Sequence record: PQ356293.1
Reading direction: 5' to 3' (one strand)
DNA length: 39,118 nucleotides
Source of the DNA: Escherichia phage KKE5P
The notes below the pieces were generated by a model. The model was not told the origin of the DNA and did no database searches. It saw only the letters and a program-made list of their open reading frames with translations. Shown in pieces: positions 11,490-38,190 of this stretch (position 1 is the first letter of the stretch; each line of letters begins with the position of its first letter). The translations under genes were made by a program, and so were the position numbers.

Positions 11490-14141
11490 TTACGCGAACG
11501 CGAAGTCTGACTTAAGGATGTCTTGGAGGTTCAAGTTACCTTTAGCCGGAAGTGCTGGCATTTTGTCCAATTGAGACTCATGCAACTGGTCAGCGAACTG
11601 GTCGTAGAAGTCAGCCAGTACATCGCAGGACTCGTAGGTGTCAACCATAGTTTCGCGCACAGCTTTGAACAGGTTGGCAGCGTCAGCAGGAATTGTCCCG
11701 AAGGAGTCATGAATAAGTGCAAACGATTCGATTCCGTACTTCTCGTGTGCCCACACTACAGTCTTACGCAGGTGGCTACCATCTTGACTATGCACAAAGT
11801 TAGGAGCAATACCAGACTCCTGTTTGTGTGCGTCAATCTCGCTATCTTTGTTGGTGTTAATGGTCGGCTGTAGACGGAACTGACCGAGGAACATCAGGTT
11901 CAAGCGAGTCTGAATGGGCTTCTTGTATTCCTGCCACACAGGGAAACCATCAGGAGTTACCCAATGCACCGCGCAACGCTTGCGTAGAATCTCCCCAGTA
12001 TTCTTATCTTTGACCTCAGCAGCCAGCAGCTTAGCAGCAGACTTGAGCCAGTTCATTGCCTCCACAGCGGCTACCACAGTCACGCTCACAGATTCCCAAA
12101 TCAGTTTCGCCATGTATCCAGCAGCCTGATTCGGTTGCGTGAACATCAGACCCTTACCGGAATCGATGGCTGGCTGAATGGTATCTTCCAGCACTTGTTG
12201 GCGGAATCCGAACTCTTTGGAACCATAGGCCAGCGTCATGACTGAACGCTTAGTGACGCTACGAGTAACACCGTAAGCCAGCCACTGACCAGCCAGAGCC
12301 TTAGTGCCCAGCTTGACTTTCTCAGAGATTTCCCCAGTGTTCTCGTCGGTCACAGTAACTACTTCGTTGTCGGTCCCGTTGATTGCATCTGCTTGTAGAA
12401 TCTCATTGACTTTCTTAGCGACAATCCCGTAGATGTCCTGTACGGTTTCGCTAGGCAGTAAGTTAACTGCACGACCGCCCACCTCATCACGGAGCATCGC
12501 GGAGAAGTGTTGAATACCAGAGCAAGACCCGTCGAACGCCAGAGGCAGCGAGCAGTTGTAGCTCAGGCCGTGATGTTGCACCCCAGCGTACTCAAAGCAG
12601 AACGCAAGGAAGCAGAACGGAGAATCTTGCTCAGCCCACCAAGTGTTCTCAAGTGGAGACTTAGCGCAAGCCATGATGTTCTCGTGGTTGTCCTCAATGA
12701 ACTTGATGCGCTCAGGGAACGGAACCTTATCGACACCAGCGCAGTTTGCACCGTGGATTTTCAGCCAGTAGTAACCCTCCTTGCCGATTGGTTTACCTTT
12801 AGCCAGCGTCAGCAGACCCTTGGTCATGTCGTTACCTTGCGGGTTGAACATTGACACAGCATAAACACGACCGCGCCAGTCCATGTTGTAAGGGAACCAG
12901 ATGGCCTTATGGTTAGCGAACTTGTTGGCTTGCTCAAGCATGAACTCAAGGCTGATACGGCGAGACTTGCGTGCCTTGTCTTTGCGGTATACGGCAGCGG
13001 CAGCACGTTTCCAAGCGGTGAGCGCCTCAGGATTCGTGTCGATGTCTTCCGGTTTCATCGGGAGTTCTTCGCGTTCAATCGCTGGGATGTCTTCGACTGG
13101 GCAGTGCTTCCACTTGGTGATTACGTTGGCGACCGCTAGAACTTTCTTGTTGATTTTCCAAGCGGTGTTTTGCGCAATGTTAATCGCTTTGTACACCTCA
13201 GGCATGTAAACGTCTTCGTAGCGCATCAGTGCTTTCTTGCTGTGAGTGCGCACCAGCGCCAGAGGACGGCGACCGTTAGCCCAATATCCACCCCCAGTAA
13301 TACCAGTCCAAGGCTTAGGAGGAACTACGCAAGGTTGGAACATCGGAGAGATACCAGCCAGTGCCCCAGCGCGAGTAGCGATAGCCTCAGCGTATTCAGG
13401 CGCGAGTTCGATAGTCTCAGAGTCTTGGCCCACTACGCCAGCGTTTTGGCGGTGCAAGTTAACCATTCCGGTTGACTCAATGAGCATCTCAATGCAGCGC
13501 ACGCCTACGTGAATGGAGTCCTCCTTGTGCCACGAAGACCACGCCTCGCCACCCATCAGACCCTTAGAGAGCATATCAGCTTCGACAACCTGCATGAATG
13601 CTTTCTTGTAGACGTGTCCTACTCGCTTGTTGAGTTGTTCCTCAACGTTTTTCTTGAAGTGCTTAGCTTCAAGGTCACGGATTCGACCAAAGCGCGCCTC
13701 ATCCTCAATGGCCCGACCGATTGCGCTTGCTACAGCCTGAACGGTTGTATTGTCTGCACTGGTTAGACAAGCAAGGGTGGTCTTGATGGTGATGTACGCT
13801 ACCGCTTCCGGCTTGATTTCTTGCAGGAACTGGAAGGCTGTCGGGCGTTTGCCGCGCTTAGCTTTCACTTCCTCAAACCAATCGTTGATGCGTGCAATCA
13901 TCTTAGGGAGAAGGGTAGTAATGAGAGGCTTAGCGGCAGAGTTATCCGCAACCTCACCAGCTTTAAGTTGACGCTCAAACATCTTGCGGAAGCGTTCTTC
14001 ACCCATCTCGTAAGACTCATGCTCAAGGGCCAACTGTTCGCGAGCCAAACGCTCACCGTAGTGGTCAGCCAGAGTGTTGAACGGAATAGCAGCAAGTTCG
14101 ATGTCAGAGAAGTCGTTCTTAGCGATGTTAATCGTGTTCAT
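11490..14141 (-). CDS. 1: Single-subunit DNA-dependent RNA polymerase gp1, 883 aa
   Basis: Near-identical from memory to T7 RNAP along full length (MNTINIAKNDFSDIELAAIPFNTLADHYGERLAREQLALEHESYEMGE... to ...SDFAFA). Confidence 0.99.
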   Translation of the reverse strand: MNTINIAKNDFSDIELAAIPFNTLADHYGERLAREQLALEHESYEMGEERFRKMFERQLKAGEVADNSAAKPLITTLLPKMIARINDWFEEVKAKRGKRPTAFQFLQEIKPEAVAYITIKTTLACLTSADNTTVQAVASAIGRAIEDEARFGRIRDLEAKHFKKNVEEQLNKRVGHVYKKAFMQVVEADMLSKGLMGGEAWSSWHKEDSIHVGVRCIEMLIESTGMVNLHRQNAGVVGQDSETIELAPEYAEAIATRAGALAGISPMFQPCVVPPKPWTGITGGGYWANGRRPLALVRTHSKKALMRYEDVYMPEVYKAINIAQNTAWKINKKVLAVANVITKWKHCPVEDIPAIEREELPMKPEDIDTNPEALTAWKRAAAAVYRKDKARKSRRISLEFMLEQANKFANHKAIWFPYNMDWRGRVYAVSMFNPQGNDMTKGLLTLAKGKPIGKEGYYWLKIHGANCAGVDKVPFPERIKFIEDNHENIMACAKSPLENTWWAEQDSPFCFLAFCFEYAGVQHHGLSYNCSLPLAFDGSCSGIQHFSAMLRDEVGGRAVNLLPSETVQDIYGIVAKKVNEILQADAINGTDNEVVTVTDENTGEISEKVKLGTKALAGQWLAYGVTRSVTKRSVMTLAYGSKEFGFRQQVLEDTIQPAIDSGKGLMFTQPNQAAGYMAKLIWESVSVTVVAAVEAMNWLKSAAKLLAAEVKDKNTGEILRKRCAVHWVTPDGFPVWQEYKKPIQTRLNLMFLGQFRLQPTINTNKDSEIDAHKQESGIAPNFVHSQDGSHLRKTVVWAHEKYGIESFALIHDSFGTIPADAANLFKAVRETMVDTYESCDVLADFYDQFADQLHESQLDKMPALPAKGNLNLQDILKSDFAFA

Positions 14142-14159: not shown

Positions 14160-14212
14160 AATAAATCGTATCTATTCAGGCCACCCGTAGATGACCTGTA
14201 AGATAAGACTAT
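14160..14212 (-). promoter_or_regulatory. RNase III processing hairpin (R1-like) upstream of gene 1
   Basis: Phage-sense ttatcttacaggtcatctacgggtggcctgaatag. Confidence 0.55.
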
Positions 14213-15310: not shown

Positions 15311-15448
15311 TTAGATGTTGTTGAGCTTGCGGTTAGTGCGTAGTTCACGCTTAAGGCGTTCGATTCGCTGTTTCATTGCGAACCCATCAGGCGTGCATAC
15401 AGTTGCCCCGTTGGGCGTGTGGATAGGCATAACGTAGTGTTTCAGCAT
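15311..15448 (-). CDS. Small early protein, 45 aa (gene 0.6-position)
   Basis: Hand translation [45 protein letters not shown]; assignment by position only. Confidence 0.45.
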
Positions 15449-15576
15449 TTGCGTAGTGCCCCCGTTACGATGCAAGCGACCAAGTAAGCGCCTACAGCCA
15501 CACCTAAAGCCTTCCCAAAGGATGCACCTACAGCTAGACCAAGAGCGGTTAGCAGACCGATAGTAAGCATAGACAT
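15442..15576 (-). CDS. Small hydrophobic early protein, 44 aa (gene 0.5-position)
   Basis: [44 protein letters not shown] after GAGGGA SD; track ORF 15442..15684 trimmed. Confidence 0.5.
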   Translation of the reverse strand: MSMLTIGLLTALGLAVGASFGKALGVAVGAYLVACIVTGALRKC

Positions 15577-15590
15577 TACTCCCTCGTAAG

Positions 15591-15647
15591 TAAAGTGATA
15601 ATCATAAAGGCCACTCATTAGGAGCGACCTTGAGTTTACCACTTGGT
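15591..15647 (-). promoter_or_regulatory. RNase III-type processing hairpin, copy A
   Basis: Contains agtgataatcataaaggccactc, a 23-nt string repeated exactly at 15889..15911. Confidence 0.5.
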
Positions 15648-15664
15648 AGACTTGAAGCCTGTTG

Positions 15665-15865
15665 TCAATCGTTCCAACCCGCACATGTTGCTTGGTGTAT
15701 CACACAGGCTTGATACTCCTCTTGCGCTAAAATCGGGTTCACCCAAAATGTGACCTGTTTGCCGTATCGCACAACGTAGGAGCATCCCATTGACCCGTGG
15801 TAATACTCACGCAGCGTTACAGTGCATTGGCCTTTGATTTTAGATGTTGCCAGAAGTTTACTCAT
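15665..15865 (-). CDS. Hypothetical early protein, 66 aa (MSKLLATSKIKGQCTVTLREYYHGSMGCSYVV...)
   Basis: ATG at 15863..15865; lies between two near-identical RNase III-type hairpins; track ORF 15665..15937 trimmed. Confidence 0.5.
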   Translation of the reverse strand: MSKLLATSKIKGQCTVTLREYYHGSMGCSYVVRYGKQVTFWVNPILAQEEYQACVIHQATCAGWND

Positions 15866-15886
15866 GGTGTTAGTCCTATAGCGTGT

Positions 15887-15940
15887 TAAGTGATAATCAT
15901 AAAGGCCACTCGCATGGAGCGACCTTGAGCCTATCACTCA
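15887..15940 (-). promoter_or_regulatory. RNase III-type processing hairpin, copy B
   Basis: gtgataatcataaaggccactcgcatggagcgaccttgagcctatcac; paralogous to copy A. Confidence 0.5.
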
Positions 15941-16086
15941 GCAGACTCCAAGGCAATAGCCTTGTTGTTTTCGTACAGTTCCTTGAGGTGTTCCATTGCG
16001 AGCGACCAGTTAAAGCCACAGCGCACCATATCGCTATAGAACAGTACAGTTTGAGCGGTCAGACCATATTGCACGTTGTTAGCCAT
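15934..16086 (-). CDS. 0.4: gp0.4, 50 aa
   Basis: Hand translation [50 protein letters not shown]; start overlaps ocr stop (TAATG). Confidence 0.65.
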   Translation of the reverse strand: MANNVQYGLTAQTVLFYSDMVRCGFNWSLAMEHLKELYENNKAIALESAE

Positions 16087-16490
16087 TACTCTTCATCCTC
16101 CTCATGGCCTTCCTCTTCCTCGACTTCCTCAGGGCACTCGTTCAGCAAGTCCTCGACTTCCTCGACTTCCTCAAGGTACTCGTTCAGCAAGTCCTCAGCG
16201 TCTTCCCAGAGGTCAATCGTGAGTTGCTCATAGATACGTGCTTGCAGGATACGGATTACGTCCTTGGTGTCCGGCATCAGACCAGAGTCTTCGAACTCAA
16301 GGTCAATGCCCTCGCTTGCCATTACATTGAAAACGTCACTGTAATAGTGCGGAACGGCGTTATCGGCAGCATCATGAATAGCATCGTGCAGGTCATCAGT
16401 GTCGCGGATGTCATCATAACGGATGTTTTCTTTCAGCATTTCGTAAGCGTGGTCGAAAACGTTGCGATAAGTCATGTTAGACATAGACAT
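16086..16490 (-). CDS. 0.3: Ocr, DNA-mimic anti-restriction protein gp0.3, 134 aa (extended acidic tail)
   Basis: [50 protein letters not shown]... matches T7 Ocr; about 17 aa longer at C-terminus. Confidence 0.9.
16121..16197. repeat. Tandem duplication (period 42 bp) inside the ocr 3' end
   Basis: cgacttcctcagggcactcgttcagcaagtcct at 16121..16153 recurs with two substitutions at 16163..16195. Confidence 0.8.
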
Positions 16491-16510
16491 TTGTGTTACC
16501 TCGTGCAGTT

Positions 16511-16560
16511 GTTAGTGAATATCATAAAGGGCACCTTGCGATACCCTTGAGTTATCCGCT
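16511..16560 (-). promoter_or_regulatory. RNase III processing hairpin (R0.3-like)
   Basis: gtgaatatcataaagggcaccttgcgatacccttgagttatc upstream of ocr. Confidence 0.5.
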
Positions 16561-16757
16561 AGTCATGCACTCAAGAGTTATTTACCAGATTGTTAAAGAA
16601 CTTTAGGCTACAGTTTCGTCGAGCCGAGGCTATTTCAGTGTTAGCCGTCACTTGCATTATAAGTGCGACAAGCTCTTTATTATCGTGGTCGCTTGTGCTT
16701 TCGCCATCTATCCACTATGTCGCGTTTTTACACCTACGACACTCGGTGTCTTTCATG

Positions 16758-16798
16758 TGGTACATCGTACCGTGTTTACTTCTTGTTGTCAACCGTTT
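16758..16798 (-). promoter_or_regulatory. Host sigma70 early promoter A3
   Basis: Phage-sense TTGACA (-35) and TACGAT (-10) with 17-bp spacer. Confidence 0.6.
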
Positions 16799-16867
16799 TG
16801 TTTCACCTTATGTGCCGTGGTGCGCTTAAGTCACCTAGAAGACACCGTTTGTCCGGCTGACGTTACG

Positions 16868-16908
16868 TTGTGTATCTTACTGCATGTTACTTCTTGTTGT
16901 CAATGCCT
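16868..16908 (-). promoter_or_regulatory. Host sigma70 early promoter A2
   Basis: Phage-sense TTGACA (-35) and TAAGAT (-10). Confidence 0.6.
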
Positions 16909-16994
16909 GTTTTTCGTATGACTTATCAGGCTGTCTACTTATCCGGTTGACTCCGGTATCTCAGGGAGTGGCTTTAAGGCCGTTGTCCCGTTGA

Positions 16995-17035
16995 CGTGAT
17001 GAATAGTAAACGGTAGGACTCTTTAAGTCAATACT
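16995..17035 (-). promoter_or_regulatory. Host sigma70 early promoter A1
   Basis: Phage-sense TTGACT (-35) and TACTAT (-10) with 17-bp spacer. Confidence 0.6.
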
Positions 17036-17109: not shown

Positions 17110-17330
17110 AGACAATGATTAAAGGTGTCTCTTTATAGGTAACAACAAGGCGTCTTTAGGTATGGTCTTTAGGTATGGTCTTTAGGTGGAGTCTTTAGAA
17201 GATACTTTAAGATGGGGATTGACTGAATGGGTCTTTAGGTGTAGTCTTTAGGATGTAGGCGGTAGGAATGACTTTAGGAGGTGACTTTAGGAGGATACTT
17301 TAGGAGACTGAACAGATAGGGACACAGAGA
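17110..17330. repeat. Array of about 10 CCTAAAG (plus-strand CTTTAGG) heptamers at about 11-12 bp spacing, left-end side
   Basis: Repeated ctttagg in gtctttaggtatggtctttaggtatggtctttaggtggagtctttag... Confidence 0.7.
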
Positions 17331-38095: not shown

Positions 38096-38190
38096 AGAGT
38101 TAAATCTTAAAGTAATAATCATAAAGGCCCCTATCTCCCTATAGTGAGTCGTATTAATTTAGGGACCTTGAGTTTATCACTTAGAGTCTT
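38096..38190 (-). promoter_or_regulatory. RNase III-type imperfect hairpin bracketing phi6.5 (R6.5-like)
   Basis: gtaataatcataaaggcccct ... agggaccttgagtttatcac flank the promoter. Confidence 0.45.
38127..38149 (-). promoter_or_regulatory. T7-RNAP promoter phi6.5
   Basis: Promoter-sense taatacgactcactatagggaga (exact consensus). Confidence 0.85.

What the first reader, a model, noticed from the sequence alone, without database searches (positions are those of the whole stretch)
15588..15940. Extra 66-aa early ORF bracketed by two near-identical RNase III-type hairpins
Between gene 0.4 and the 0.5-position ORF there are two hairpins sharing an exact 23-nt string (agtgataatcataaaggccactc at 15594..15616 and 15889..15911) plus similar downstream arms (...ggagcgaccttgag...). 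They flank a 66-aa ORF (MSKLLATSKIKGQCTVTLREYYHGSMGCSYVV...). T7 as I recall has a single R0.5 site here. The layout looks like a small gene cassette acquired or duplicated with its own mRNA processing site.
Basis: partly seen in the sequence, partly recalled or inferred. Interest (0 to 1): 0.5.

Follow-up and report, generated by a model that had tools for sequence, protein, structure and literature searches.

The report
Gene 0.45 between two RNase III hairpins
The extra small gene is the already named gene 0.45 of T3-type phages sitting in a T7-type early operon between two copies of the phage's standard RNase III processing hairpin, a layout at least 13 sequenced phages share, so it is ordinary, though it shows clearly how these hairpins act as seams where small early genes are swapped.

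Summary
The window is a T7-type phage genome with its genes on the minus strand. The exact 23-mer occurs only at 15594 and 15889. Both copies lie in 59-nt hairpins (15942..15884 and 15647..15589) that fold like T7 RNase III sites and are the two best matches in the window to a covariance model of that hairpin family.

The 66-aa ORF (15865..15665) is gene 0.45, named in phiYeO3-12 and phiSG-JL2, which also annotate a "putative RNase III site R0.45" upstream of it. It is under strong purifying selection (median dN/dS 0.085). Its function is unknown.

The layout ocr-0.4-R-0.45-R-0.5 already exists in at least 13 GenBank phages.

Hairpin B carries a decayed copy of the 3' tail of gene 0.4, which shows that "0.4 tail + R0.5" was duplicated when a T3-type R0.45-0.45 segment was joined in. 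Three independent gains or replacements among relatives end exactly at hairpins, so the hairpins are also seams of modular exchange.

RNase III cleavage itself is inferred by homology and was not tested. Verdict: a new member of a known kind, of low to moderate interest.

The parts
16764..17031 (-). Three sigma-70 promoter-like sites at the positions of the T7 early promoters A1, A2 and A3. They would start the early transcript that contains everything listed below.
   Evidence: TTGACT-17-TACTAT at 17031..17003, TTGACA-18-TAAGAT at 16903..16874, and TTGACA-17-TACGAT at 16792..16764, all on the minus strand.
16509..16564 (-). R0.3-type RNase III hairpin upstream of gene 0.3.
   Evidence: Model R1 scores 58.1 bits. 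The sequence is nearly identical to T7 R0.3.
16086..16490 (-). Gene 0.3 (Ocr DNA mimic), 134 aa.
   Evidence: Pfam PF08684 ocr, E 9.8e-62. It is 94% identical to T7 gp0.3 over the aligned part.
15934..16086 (-). Gene 0.4, 50 aa. Its last codons and its TGA stop lie in the 5' arm of hairpin A.
   Evidence: PHROG 7202, E 1.8e-33. It is 96% identical to T7 gp0.4. The sequence is shown.
15884..15942 (-). Hairpin A, an R0.45-type RNase III site. The stem spans about 15940..15887. The loop CAUGC and the 3' flank match phiYeO3-12 R0.45, and the 5' arm is the T7-type 0.4 tail. The predicted single cut lies between 15899 and 15898.
   Evidence: Fold. Model R1 scores 69.3 bits, E 9.5e-17. Alignment to named sites. 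The cut position is inferred from the T7 R0.5 site and was not tested.
15874..15877 (-). Shine-Dalgarno-like AGGA, 8 nt upstream of the 0.45 ATG.
   Evidence: Sequence. The same ATAGGACTAACACC-ATG context is present in phiYeO3-12 and the other relatives. Serratia phage Pila annotates a ribosome-binding site there.
15665..15865 (-). Gene 0.45, 66 aa plus stop codon. Function unknown.
   Evidence: PHROG 6500, E 4.2e-42. tblastn finds it in 158 phage records, and phiSG-JL2 names it gp0.45. It is 88% identical to phiYeO3-12 gp0.45. Median dN/dS is 0.085. The AlphaFold2 model has mean pLDDT 87.6.
15648..15664 (-). 17-nt spacer CAACAGGCTTCAAGTCT. It is a deletion derivative of a longer spacer, and its 3' part is a decayed copy of the 3' tail of gene 0.4.
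   Evidence: One search compares it with the 39-40-nt spacers of L005, C2, 04922B, HZ2R8 and CICC 80001. In one search, 9 of the 13 nt immediately upstream of the hairpin match between the two copies in the window, and 12/13 in C2, against 0-6/13 for controls.
15589..15647 (-). Hairpin B, an R0.5-type RNase III site. The stem spans about 15644..15593, the loop is CUAAU, and the 3' flank is that of T7 R0.5. The predicted single cut lies between 15604 and 15603.
   Evidence: Fold. Model R1 scores 71.5 bits, E 2.2e-17, the best hit in the window. Alignment.
15442..15576 (-). Gene 0.5, 44 aa, the first gene of the next processed mRNA.
   Evidence: PHROG 16572, E 4.7e-26. It is 79% identical to T7 gp0.5.

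Best explanation
This is a gene-0.45 module inside the host-transcribed early operon of a T7-type phage. E. coli RNA polymerase starting at the A promoters would read through R0.3, ocr, 0.4, hairpin A, 0.45, hairpin B, 0.5, 0.6 and 0.7 into gene 1. Hairpins A and B are members of the T7-group RNase III processing-site family, homologous to R0.45 and R0.5. By homology, RNase III should cut each one once, on the 3' side of the internal loop (CCUUUAU|GAUUAUC). That would release a roughly 295-nt monocistronic 0.45 mRNA (15898..15604) with a 33-nt leader and a protective 3' hairpin, leave the 0.3-0.4 mRNA ending in hairpin A, and start the 0.5 mRNA just after hairpin B. This phage would then have six early processing sites where T7 has five. 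The likely origin is that a T3/phiYeO3-12-type segment (R0.45, 0.45 and about 18 nt downstream) was joined to a T7-type early region. The left joint lies inside the homologous hairpin. The right joint is an illegitimate junction into the 3' tail of gene 0.4, which duplicated '0.4 tail + R0.5'. In the window the spacer relic has since lost 22 nt. The module has spread and been rearranged among T7-group phages by recombination within the hairpins. Shown here: the sequence homologies, the folds, family covariation, purifying selection on 0.45, the relic, and junctions at hairpins. Inferred: actual RNase III cleavage and its exact position, and the order of the recombination events. The function of gp0.45 remains unknown.
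For: Anatomy and fold. The hairpin family has 19 base pairs, 93.9% of cells paired, 15 of 19 pairs with compensatory changes, and 0 of 500 shuffles reaching the observed values. A and B are the top two hits of the model in the window, and all strong hits lie on the sense strand. Named homologues: phiYeO3-12 'putative RNase III site R0.45' plus gene 0.45, phiSG-JL2 likewise, and T3 R0.5. Promoters lie upstream, and the scan finds no promoter-like site between 15250 and 16760 and no terminator-like site on the sense strand. Coding status: 158 phage records, median dN/dS 0.085. Mosaic boundaries against T7 and phiYeO3-12. Relic of the 0.4 tail and of T3-type sequence downstream of 0.45. The same layout is in Pila, C2, vB_YpYeO9, 3A_8767, CICC 80001, 04922B and others. 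[quoted passage not shown]
Against: No cleavage data exist for this phage or for any R0.45 site; the phiYeO3-12 and phiSG-JL2 annotations both say 'putative'. Rfam has no model for these sites and returned nothing. The exact cut position rests on my recollection of the T7 R0.5 coordinate (1468, Dunn and Studier 1983), because the T7 records available here do not list RNase III sites. Not every boundary of the 0.45 module lies in a hairpin: against phiCFP-1 and IMG/VR contig 3300045988_000519, homology starts at the 0.45 ATG. The single-origin story for the relic is the most economical reading and is not proven.
Confidence: 0.82

Rival explanations
1. As well as being processing sites, the hairpins are the working recombination substrates of a cassette-shuffling system in T7-group early regions, comparable to the PeSL cassettes of T4-type phages. 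Short conserved hairpin DNA would provide the homology for swapping, inserting and reordering small early genes, possibly through excised circles. This adds to the main explanation and does not replace it.
For: ESh2 and the window are unrelated between R0.3 and hairpin A (SAMase against ocr-0.4). Their homology starts exactly at the 5' edge of hairpin A and runs 2773 nt at 90.7%. EFA-2 carries an extra 'ORF X + hairpin' inserted at hairpin B. X and 0.45 occur in both orders, each time with a hairpin at every junction: EG1 and WW2 against EFA-2. Loop variants (CUAGC, CAUGC, AAUAU, CUAAU) assort independently of the flanking arms, which themselves track the neighbouring genes. An unrelated low-GC contig has 7 such hairpins in 2 kb separating very small ORFs. 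PeSL precedent: PMC2839356.
Against: Hairpins sit in every intergenic gap here, so boundaries near them are partly expected. Some boundaries lie elsewhere. The right-hand joint of the original 0.45 acquisition was illegitimate and not within a hairpin. I made no genome-wide statistical test of breakpoint enrichment, and there is no evidence for circles. My sample is about 25 early regions.
Confidence: 0.4
2. The two hairpins result from a recent tandem duplication in this genome, or from an assembly artefact, and the ORF between them is incidental.
For: There is an exact 23-nt repeat with 295-nt spacing.
Against: The same two-hairpin layout occurs in at least 13 independently sequenced phages with diverged sequences. 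The two copies differ in loop, 5' arm and 3' flank. The 23-mer is a family-wide conserved string. The ORF is conserved under purifying selection.
Confidence: 0.02
3. The hairpins are intrinsic transcription terminators or attenuators that limit read-through into or out of 0.45, and are not RNase III sites.
For: They are stable GC-containing stem-loops in intergenic positions.
Against: No U-tract follows either stem; the following sequences are CACUUAACACGC and CACUUUACUUACGAGGG. The terminator scan finds nothing on the minus strand here. The conserved part is the internal loop, which is invariant in all 39 aligned family members, and that is the hallmark of the T7 RNase III sites. Essential genes 0.7 and 1 lie downstream in the same transcription unit.
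Confidence: 0.04
4. The 66-aa ORF is not a functional gene, and only the hairpins matter.
For: There is no Pfam, PADLOC or PDB sequence match. Several deposited genomes leave it unannotated: C2, vB_YpYeO9 and ESh2.
Against: Median dN/dS is 0.085 over 222 pairs with dS above 0.1. There are 23 full-length ungapped copies among the loci examined, with a conserved Shine-Dalgarno sequence and ATG. The structure model is confident. The HMM search finds 30 proteins in all at E <= 0.001, nearly all 63-90 aa, and the 20 retrieved show a conserved C-terminal motif.
Confidence: 0.03

Closest known systems
phiYeO3-12 and phiSG-JL2 'putative RNase III site R0.45' plus gene 0.45 (T3-type phages, Teetrevirus)
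   Same: The protein is orthologous: 66 aa and 88% identical. Hairpin A has the same upper stem, the same loop CAUGC and the same 3' flank with AGGA-N8-ATG. The homologous DNA block runs from the hairpin to the stop codon at 88.9%.
   Different: In those phages the module follows the SAMase gene and is followed directly by T3-type gene 0.6 with no second hairpin. Here it sits in a T7-type backbone after ocr-0.4 and is followed by a second hairpin and T7-type gene 0.5.
T7 RNase III site R0.5, between genes 0.4 and 0.5
   Same: Hairpin B shares the upper stem, the internal loop, the 3' arm and the 3' flank up to the 0.5 start codon. Hairpin A shares the 5' arm, which is the end of gene 0.4.
   Different: T7 has one copy and no 0.45. 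Here the site is split into two copies, and the 5' flank of copy B is a non-coding relic of the 0.4 tail.
Deposited T7-group phages with the same layout: Serratia phage Pila, Salmonella phages C2 and 3A_8767, Yersinia phage vB_YpYeO9, Escherichia phages CICC 80001 and 04922B
   Same: The gene and hairpin order is R0.3, ocr, 0.4, R, 0.45, R, 0.5, 0.6, 0.7.
   Different: They are 82-92% identical to the window over this segment. The spacer after 0.45 ranges from 0 to 40 nt. None of the fetched same-layout records annotates the hairpins, and some do not annotate the ORF.
PeSL (promoter-early stem-loop) regulatory cassettes of T4-type phages (Arbiol et al. 2010, PMC2839356)
   Same: Short conserved regulatory repeats flank small non-essential ORFs of unknown function, and gains, losses and replacements between related phages end at the repeats.
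   Different: PeSLs are a promoter plus a terminator, and mini-circles have been shown for them. The repeats here are RNase III processing hairpins without promoter or terminator features, and no circles are known.

Membership tests
T7-group RNase III processing sites (R0.3 / R0.45 / R0.5 type) | An irregular hairpin of about two helical turns: a lower stem, an asymmetric internal loop and an upper stem. | tested here: met
   both have a 9-10-bp lower stem, a 4/5-nt internal loop, a 10-bp upper stem and a 5-nt loop. T7 R0.5 and phiYeO3-12 R0.45, folded the same way, give the same architecture.
T7-group RNase III processing sites (R0.3 / R0.45 / R0.5 type) | The conserved internal-loop and stem-junction sequence CUCAAGG ... 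CCUUUAUGA. | tested here: met
   These columns are invariant in 39 diverse family members, and the motif is present in both A and B. The model scores are 69.3 and 71.5 bits.
T7-group RNase III processing sites (R0.3 / R0.45 / R0.5 type) | The structure is maintained by compensatory change across the family. | tested here: met
   15 of 19 pairs change on both sides, 93.9% of cells are paired against 30-51% for slid controls, and 0 of 500 shuffles reach the observed values. This is family-level evidence. A and B themselves differ in the lower stem through G-U and A-U changes that keep the pairing.
T7-group RNase III processing sites (R0.3 / R0.45 / R0.5 type) | An intergenic position on the sense strand of a polycistronic transcript. 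| tested here: met
   all strong hits lie on the minus (sense) strand. A sits between 0.4 and 0.45, B between 0.45 and 0.5, and both are downstream of the A promoters.
T7-group RNase III processing sites (R0.3 / R0.45 / R0.5 type) | [quoted passage not shown] | not testable with these tools
   This needs in vitro cleavage or end-mapping in rnc+ and rnc- hosts. The R0.45 annotations in the public records are themselves 'putative'.
T7-group RNase III processing sites (R0.3 / R0.45 / R0.5 type) | Absence of antideterminant base pairs in the proximal and distal boxes (PMC1540722). | not tested
   The upper stem is identical to that of T7 R0.5, so the boxes in it should be acceptable. I did not score them explicitly.
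Gene 0.45 family (PHROG 6500) | Sequence homology over the full length. | tested here: met
   PHROG 6500, E 4.2e-42, residues 1-66 of 66. It is 64-97% identical to the database members found.
Gene 0.45 family (PHROG 6500) | An early-region position downstream of 0.3 and upstream of 0.5, 0.6 or 0.7. | tested here: met
   One search shows this in all 26 early regions compared that carry the gene.
Gene 0.45 family (PHROG 6500) | A known biochemical function. | not testable with these tools
PeSL-like mobile regulatory cassettes (T4-type phages) | The repeats are a promoter plus a terminator. | tested here: not met
   The scan finds no promoter-like site and no sense-strand terminator-like site at or between the hairpins. 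No U-tract follows either stem.
PeSL-like mobile regulatory cassettes (T4-type phages) | Insertion, deletion and replacement boundaries between related phages fall in the repeats. | tested here: inconclusive
   Three clear cases do and two boundaries do not. I made no genome-wide enrichment test.
PeSL-like mobile regulatory cassettes (T4-type phages) | Excised mini-circles formed by recombination between neighbouring repeats. | not testable with these tools
   This needs outward-facing PCR or read-level data from infected cells.

The most novel reading that the evidence does not exclude
The RNase III hairpins of T7-group phages have a second role at the DNA level. They would be the portable homology (about 55 bp) through which small early genes (0.45, ORF X, ocr-0.4, SAMase and others) are inserted, replaced and reordered, making the early region a hairpin-punctuated cassette array comparable to the PeSL system of T4-type phages. 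Within-genome homogenisation of the copies would be a side effect.
Probability: 0.4. Interest if true: 0.45.

Novelty: new member of a known kind. Interest (0 to 1): 0.2.

Why it matters
For annotation, the finding is settled: the ORF is gene 0.45 and the hairpins are R0.45-type and R0.5-type processing sites, so this phage should make six early mRNAs where T7 makes five. Two things are worth keeping. First, the relic of the 0.4 tail behind 0.45 is a clean molecular fossil of how a T3-type gene entered a T7-type operon. Second, the hairpins recur as the seams of gene swaps in this anti-host, anti-defence part of the genome. Neither point is surprising to specialists in T7 biology. Both could help people who engineer T7-like phages or who look for new early (host-takeover) genes, since the hairpins mark module boundaries. 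gp0.45 belongs to a family of small, conserved phage proteins; its close homologues are in 158 phage records and structural look-alikes occur in diverse phages. No function is known for any of them.

Tried and rejected

I considered zinc binding by the four cysteines of gp0.45. Only C54 is invariant among close homologues. The wider family keeps a C-x2-H-x3-C-A-G motif but no consistent fourth ligand. I left this as an unproven idea.

I tried to verify the T7 R0.5 cleavage coordinate from the T7 records. Neither NC_001604 nor V01146 as held here lists RNase III sites.

Literature searches for gp0.45 and R0.45 found only one table entry, in PMC4925675, and nothing on R0.45. I found no paper describing hairpin-bounded cassette exchange in T7-like phages, but the search was limited.

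In EG1 and WW2 the spacer after 0.45 resembles both the tail of ORF X and T3-type sequence downstream of 0.45, and I could not decide between these.

Full report
**What the window is.** The window is a complete or nearly complete T7-type phage genome (Teseptimavirus-like) read on the antisense strand. The 883-aa single-subunit RNA polymerase lies at 14141..11490 on the minus strand. The nearest deposited genomes (04922B, C2, 3A_8767, T7) are about 91% identical over aligned parts. In gene orientation the early region reads as follows:
- promoter-like sites at the A1-A3 positions, 17031..16764
- an R0.3 hairpin, 16564..16509
- gene 0.3 (ocr), 16490..16086
- gene 0.4, 16086..15934
- hairpin A
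- the 66-aa ORF, 15865..15665
- hairpin B
- gene 0.5, 15576..15442
- gene 0.6, the 0.7 kinase and gene 1.

**Checking the observation.**
- The 23-mer is found only at 15594 and 15889.
- The repeat extends to 68 nt at 81% identity.
- Both copies fold as RNA into a lower stem, an asymmetric internal loop, a 10-bp upper stem and a 5-nt loop, more stably than shuffled sequence (z -3.0 and -4.5).
- A chance origin is excluded: by my arithmetic about 1e-5 such exact pairs are expected in 39 kb.
- The 23-nt identity is not a sign of recent duplication. In mRNA sense, GAGTGGCCTTTATGATTATCACT is the conserved 3' half of this class of site. It is identical in T7 R0.5 and in phiYeO3-12 R0.45, and it occurs 44 times in 31 fetched loci.

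**What the hairpins are.** I collected 121 distinct hairpins of this type from T7-group contigs and aligned 39 diverse ones.
- The internal-loop region CUCAAGG...CCUUUAUGA is invariant.
- The two stems vary with compensation: 15 of 19 pairs change on both sides, 93.9% of cells are paired against 30-51% when partners are slid, and 0 of 500 shuffles reach the observed values.
- A covariance model built from this alignment finds seven strong hits in the window, all on the sense strand. Hairpin B (71.5 bits) and hairpin A (69.3 bits) are the best two.
- This is the known family of T7 RNase III processing sites. T3, phiYeO3-12 and phiSG-JL2 annotate them as stem-loops R0.3, R0.45, R0.5 and R1.
- In T7 the early precursor RNA is cut at five such sites (PMC4858673).
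- Internal loops restrict the cut to one strand, leaving a 3' hairpin that protects the upstream mRNA (PMC1540722).

**What the ORF is.** It is gene 0.45.
- It matches PHROG 6500 over its full length (E 4.2e-42).
- It is 88% identical to phiYeO3-12 gp0.45.
- tblastn finds it in 158 phage records. Most are T3-type phages of Klebsiella, Yersinia, Salmonella and Citrobacter, where it follows the SAMase gene.
- Among 23 full-length copies, the median dN/dS is 0.085 over 222 pairs with dS above 0.1, so it is a real gene under purifying selection.
- An exhaustive HMM search finds 30 proteins in all at E <= 0.001, nearly all 63-90 aa. The 20 I retrieved share a C-x2-H-x3-C-A-G motif at the C-terminus. 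One of them lies in a phage contig that is not T7-like.

**Comparison with T7 and T3-type phages.** T7 has one hairpin (R0.5) between 0.4 and 0.5 and no 0.45.
- T7 aligns to the window from 16599 to 15885, ending at the 3' end of hairpin A, and again from 15643 to 15315, starting at hairpin B. The single T7 R0.5 therefore matches both copies.
- phiYeO3-12 aligns from hairpin A to the 0.45 stop codon, 15938..15669, at 88.9%.
- Hairpin A has a T7-type 5' arm, which is the end of gene 0.4 including its stop codon. Its loop (CAUGC) and 3' flank are phiYeO3-12-type.
- Hairpin B has the T7 R0.5 3' flank leading into gene 0.5.

**How the duplication arose.** The sequence between the 0.45 stop codon and hairpin B is informative.
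- In L005, C2, 04922B, HZ2R8, CICC 80001 and vB_YpYeO9 this spacer is 39-40 nt long.
- Its first ~18 nt (TAACGCTATTTG.AC) match what follows 0.45 in T3-type contigs L007 and L012.
- Its last ~24 nt are a decayed copy of the 3' end of gene 0.4: ACTGGACATAGCCTTCGAGTCT against ACAAGGCAATAGCCTTGGAGTCT.
- At the register fixed by the hairpin, the 13 nt upstream of the two copies match 12/13 in C2, 11/13 in HZ2R8 and 9/13 in the window. Controls using the R0.3 flank match 0-6/13.
- Hairpin B is therefore a duplicated "0.4 tail + R0.5". The right-hand joint of the acquisition was an illegitimate junction between T3-type DNA just past 0.45 and the tail of gene 0.4. The left-hand joint lies within the homologous hairpin.
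- The window's 17-nt spacer (CAAC + AGGCTTCAAGTCT) is a 22-nt deletion derivative. In Pila and 3A_8767 the spacer is gone altogether.

**How common the layout is.** The order ocr-0.4-R-0.45-R-0.5 occurs in Pila, C2, vB_YpYeO9, 3A_8767, CICC 80001, 04922B and an IMG/VR contig. A 401-nt query spanning both hairpins is covered through the start of gene 0.5 in at least 13 distinct GenBank phages. None of the same-layout records I fetched annotates the hairpins. Several leave the ORF unannotated or call an N-terminally extended form.

**The hairpins as seams.** Variants among relatives point to modular exchange at the hairpins.
- EG1 and WW2 have 0.4-R-X-R-0.45-R-0.5.
- EFA-2 has R-0.45-R-X-R-0.5, the opposite order of X and 0.45.
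- ESh2 has R-SAMase-R-0.45-R-0.5.
- P694 has R-SAMase-R-ocr-0.4-R-0.45.
- Between ESh2 and the window, homology is absent across SAMase against ocr-0.4. It starts exactly at the 5' edge of hairpin A, continues 2773 nt at 90.7%, and resumes upstream at R0.3.
- EFA-2 differs from the window by an "X + hairpin" unit inserted at hairpin B.
- Loop variants assort independently of the arms, while the arms follow the neighbouring genes.

These patterns fit recombination within the hairpins, much as described for PeSL repeats in T4-type phages (PMC2839356). The evidence comes from about 25 early regions. Hairpins occupy most intergenic gaps anyway, and two boundaries of the 0.45 block lie at its ATG and not in a hairpin. 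I therefore rate this additional role at about 0.4.

**Mechanism, with its status.** Shown here: the hairpins belong by sequence, structure and position to the T7 RNase III site family; 0.45 is a conserved coding gene; the early promoters lie upstream; and the scan finds no promoter-like site and no sense-strand terminator-like site around the module. Inferred: RNase III cuts once in each hairpin at CCUUUAU|GAUUAUC, between 15899 and 15898 and between 15604 and 15603. That would give a 295-nt 0.45 mRNA with a 33-nt leader containing AGGA-N8-AUG and a 3'-terminal hairpin. The exact cut position rests on my memory of the T7 R0.5 coordinate, because the T7 records at hand do not list these sites.

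**Verdict.** Both the gene and the site type are already named, and the combined layout already exists in deposited genomes. This is a new member of a known kind, of low to moderate interest. The relic-based reconstruction and the hairpin-seam pattern are modest additions.

Noticed in passing
window 16115-16198 (within gene 0.3, minus strand): A 42-nt tandem duplication at 90% identity lengthens the acidic C-terminal part of Ocr, repeating the motif EEVE(E/D)LLNE. The protein is 134 aa, against 117 aa for the T7 CDS 925-1278. phiCFP-1 also has a 405-nt ocr gene.
   Followed up: partly
window 15937..15665 (minus strand): A 90-aa ORF with a GTG start reads through hairpin A into 0.45. Public databases hold 80-93-aa versions of this protein (P0003-P0006), probably N-terminal over-extensions that begin inside the hairpin. 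WW2 similarly annotates an ORF that runs through the hairpin into gene 0.5.
   Followed up: partly
L061 450-2420 (IMGVR_UViG_3300032274_000058, minus strand): A low-GC T7-like contig carries seven R-type hairpins within 2 kb. They separate single ORFs or small groups of ORFs of 41-73 aa, an extreme form of the hairpin-punctuated early region.
   Followed up: partly
L148 2132-2842 (Yersinia phage vB_YenP_WW2): All three neighbouring hairpins share an extra C in the otherwise invariant internal loop (CCTTTCATGA). The cause could be copy-to-copy homogenisation within one genome or a systematic sequencing error. Yanou, ESh2 and EFA-2 each have one hairpin with a related change.
   Followed up: no
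L146 1441-1725; also L011, L148, L145, L004, L010: ORF X (94 aa, MRLNKETAVAMRSAIESRAAH...) is another small early gene that occurs as a hairpin-flanked unit at different positions: after 0.4, after 0.45, or before an ocr-like gene. It has no PADLOC match and no known function.
   Followed up: partly
L012 / L025 (Escherichia phage P694): This genome carries both a SAMase gene and an ocr gene in tandem, separated by an R hairpin. These are two different anti-restriction genes that are usually alternatives.
   Followed up: no
proteins P0018-P0042: The distant relatives of gp0.45 that I retrieved are mostly 63-88 aa (one is 120 aa) and share a C-terminal C-x2-H-x3-C-A-G motif on the predicted helix. 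This could be a metal-binding or redox site. One of them is encoded in a phage with an Sf6-type terminase, so the family is not limited to T7-like phages.
   Followed up: partly
window 17147-17304: An array of short direct repeats (units ending GTCTTTAGG, at 13-nt and about 52-nt spacing) lies upstream of the A1-like promoter. From memory, it resembles the repeat arrays next to the T7 terminal repeat. The window appears to be circularly permuted.
   Followed up: no
window 38110-38182 and 14178-14197: The model hit at 38182..38110 is 73 nt long, so the hairpin seems to carry an insertion. The hairpin at the R1 position upstream of gene 1 scores only 14.8 bits, so that site is much more diverged than R0.3, R0.45 and R0.5.
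   Followed up: no
L145 (MT350293.1, 'Enterococcus phage EFA-2'): A genome labelled as an Enterococcus faecalis phage is a typical T7-group enterobacterial phage, 92-94% identical to the window in this region. The host label looks doubtful.
   Followed up: no
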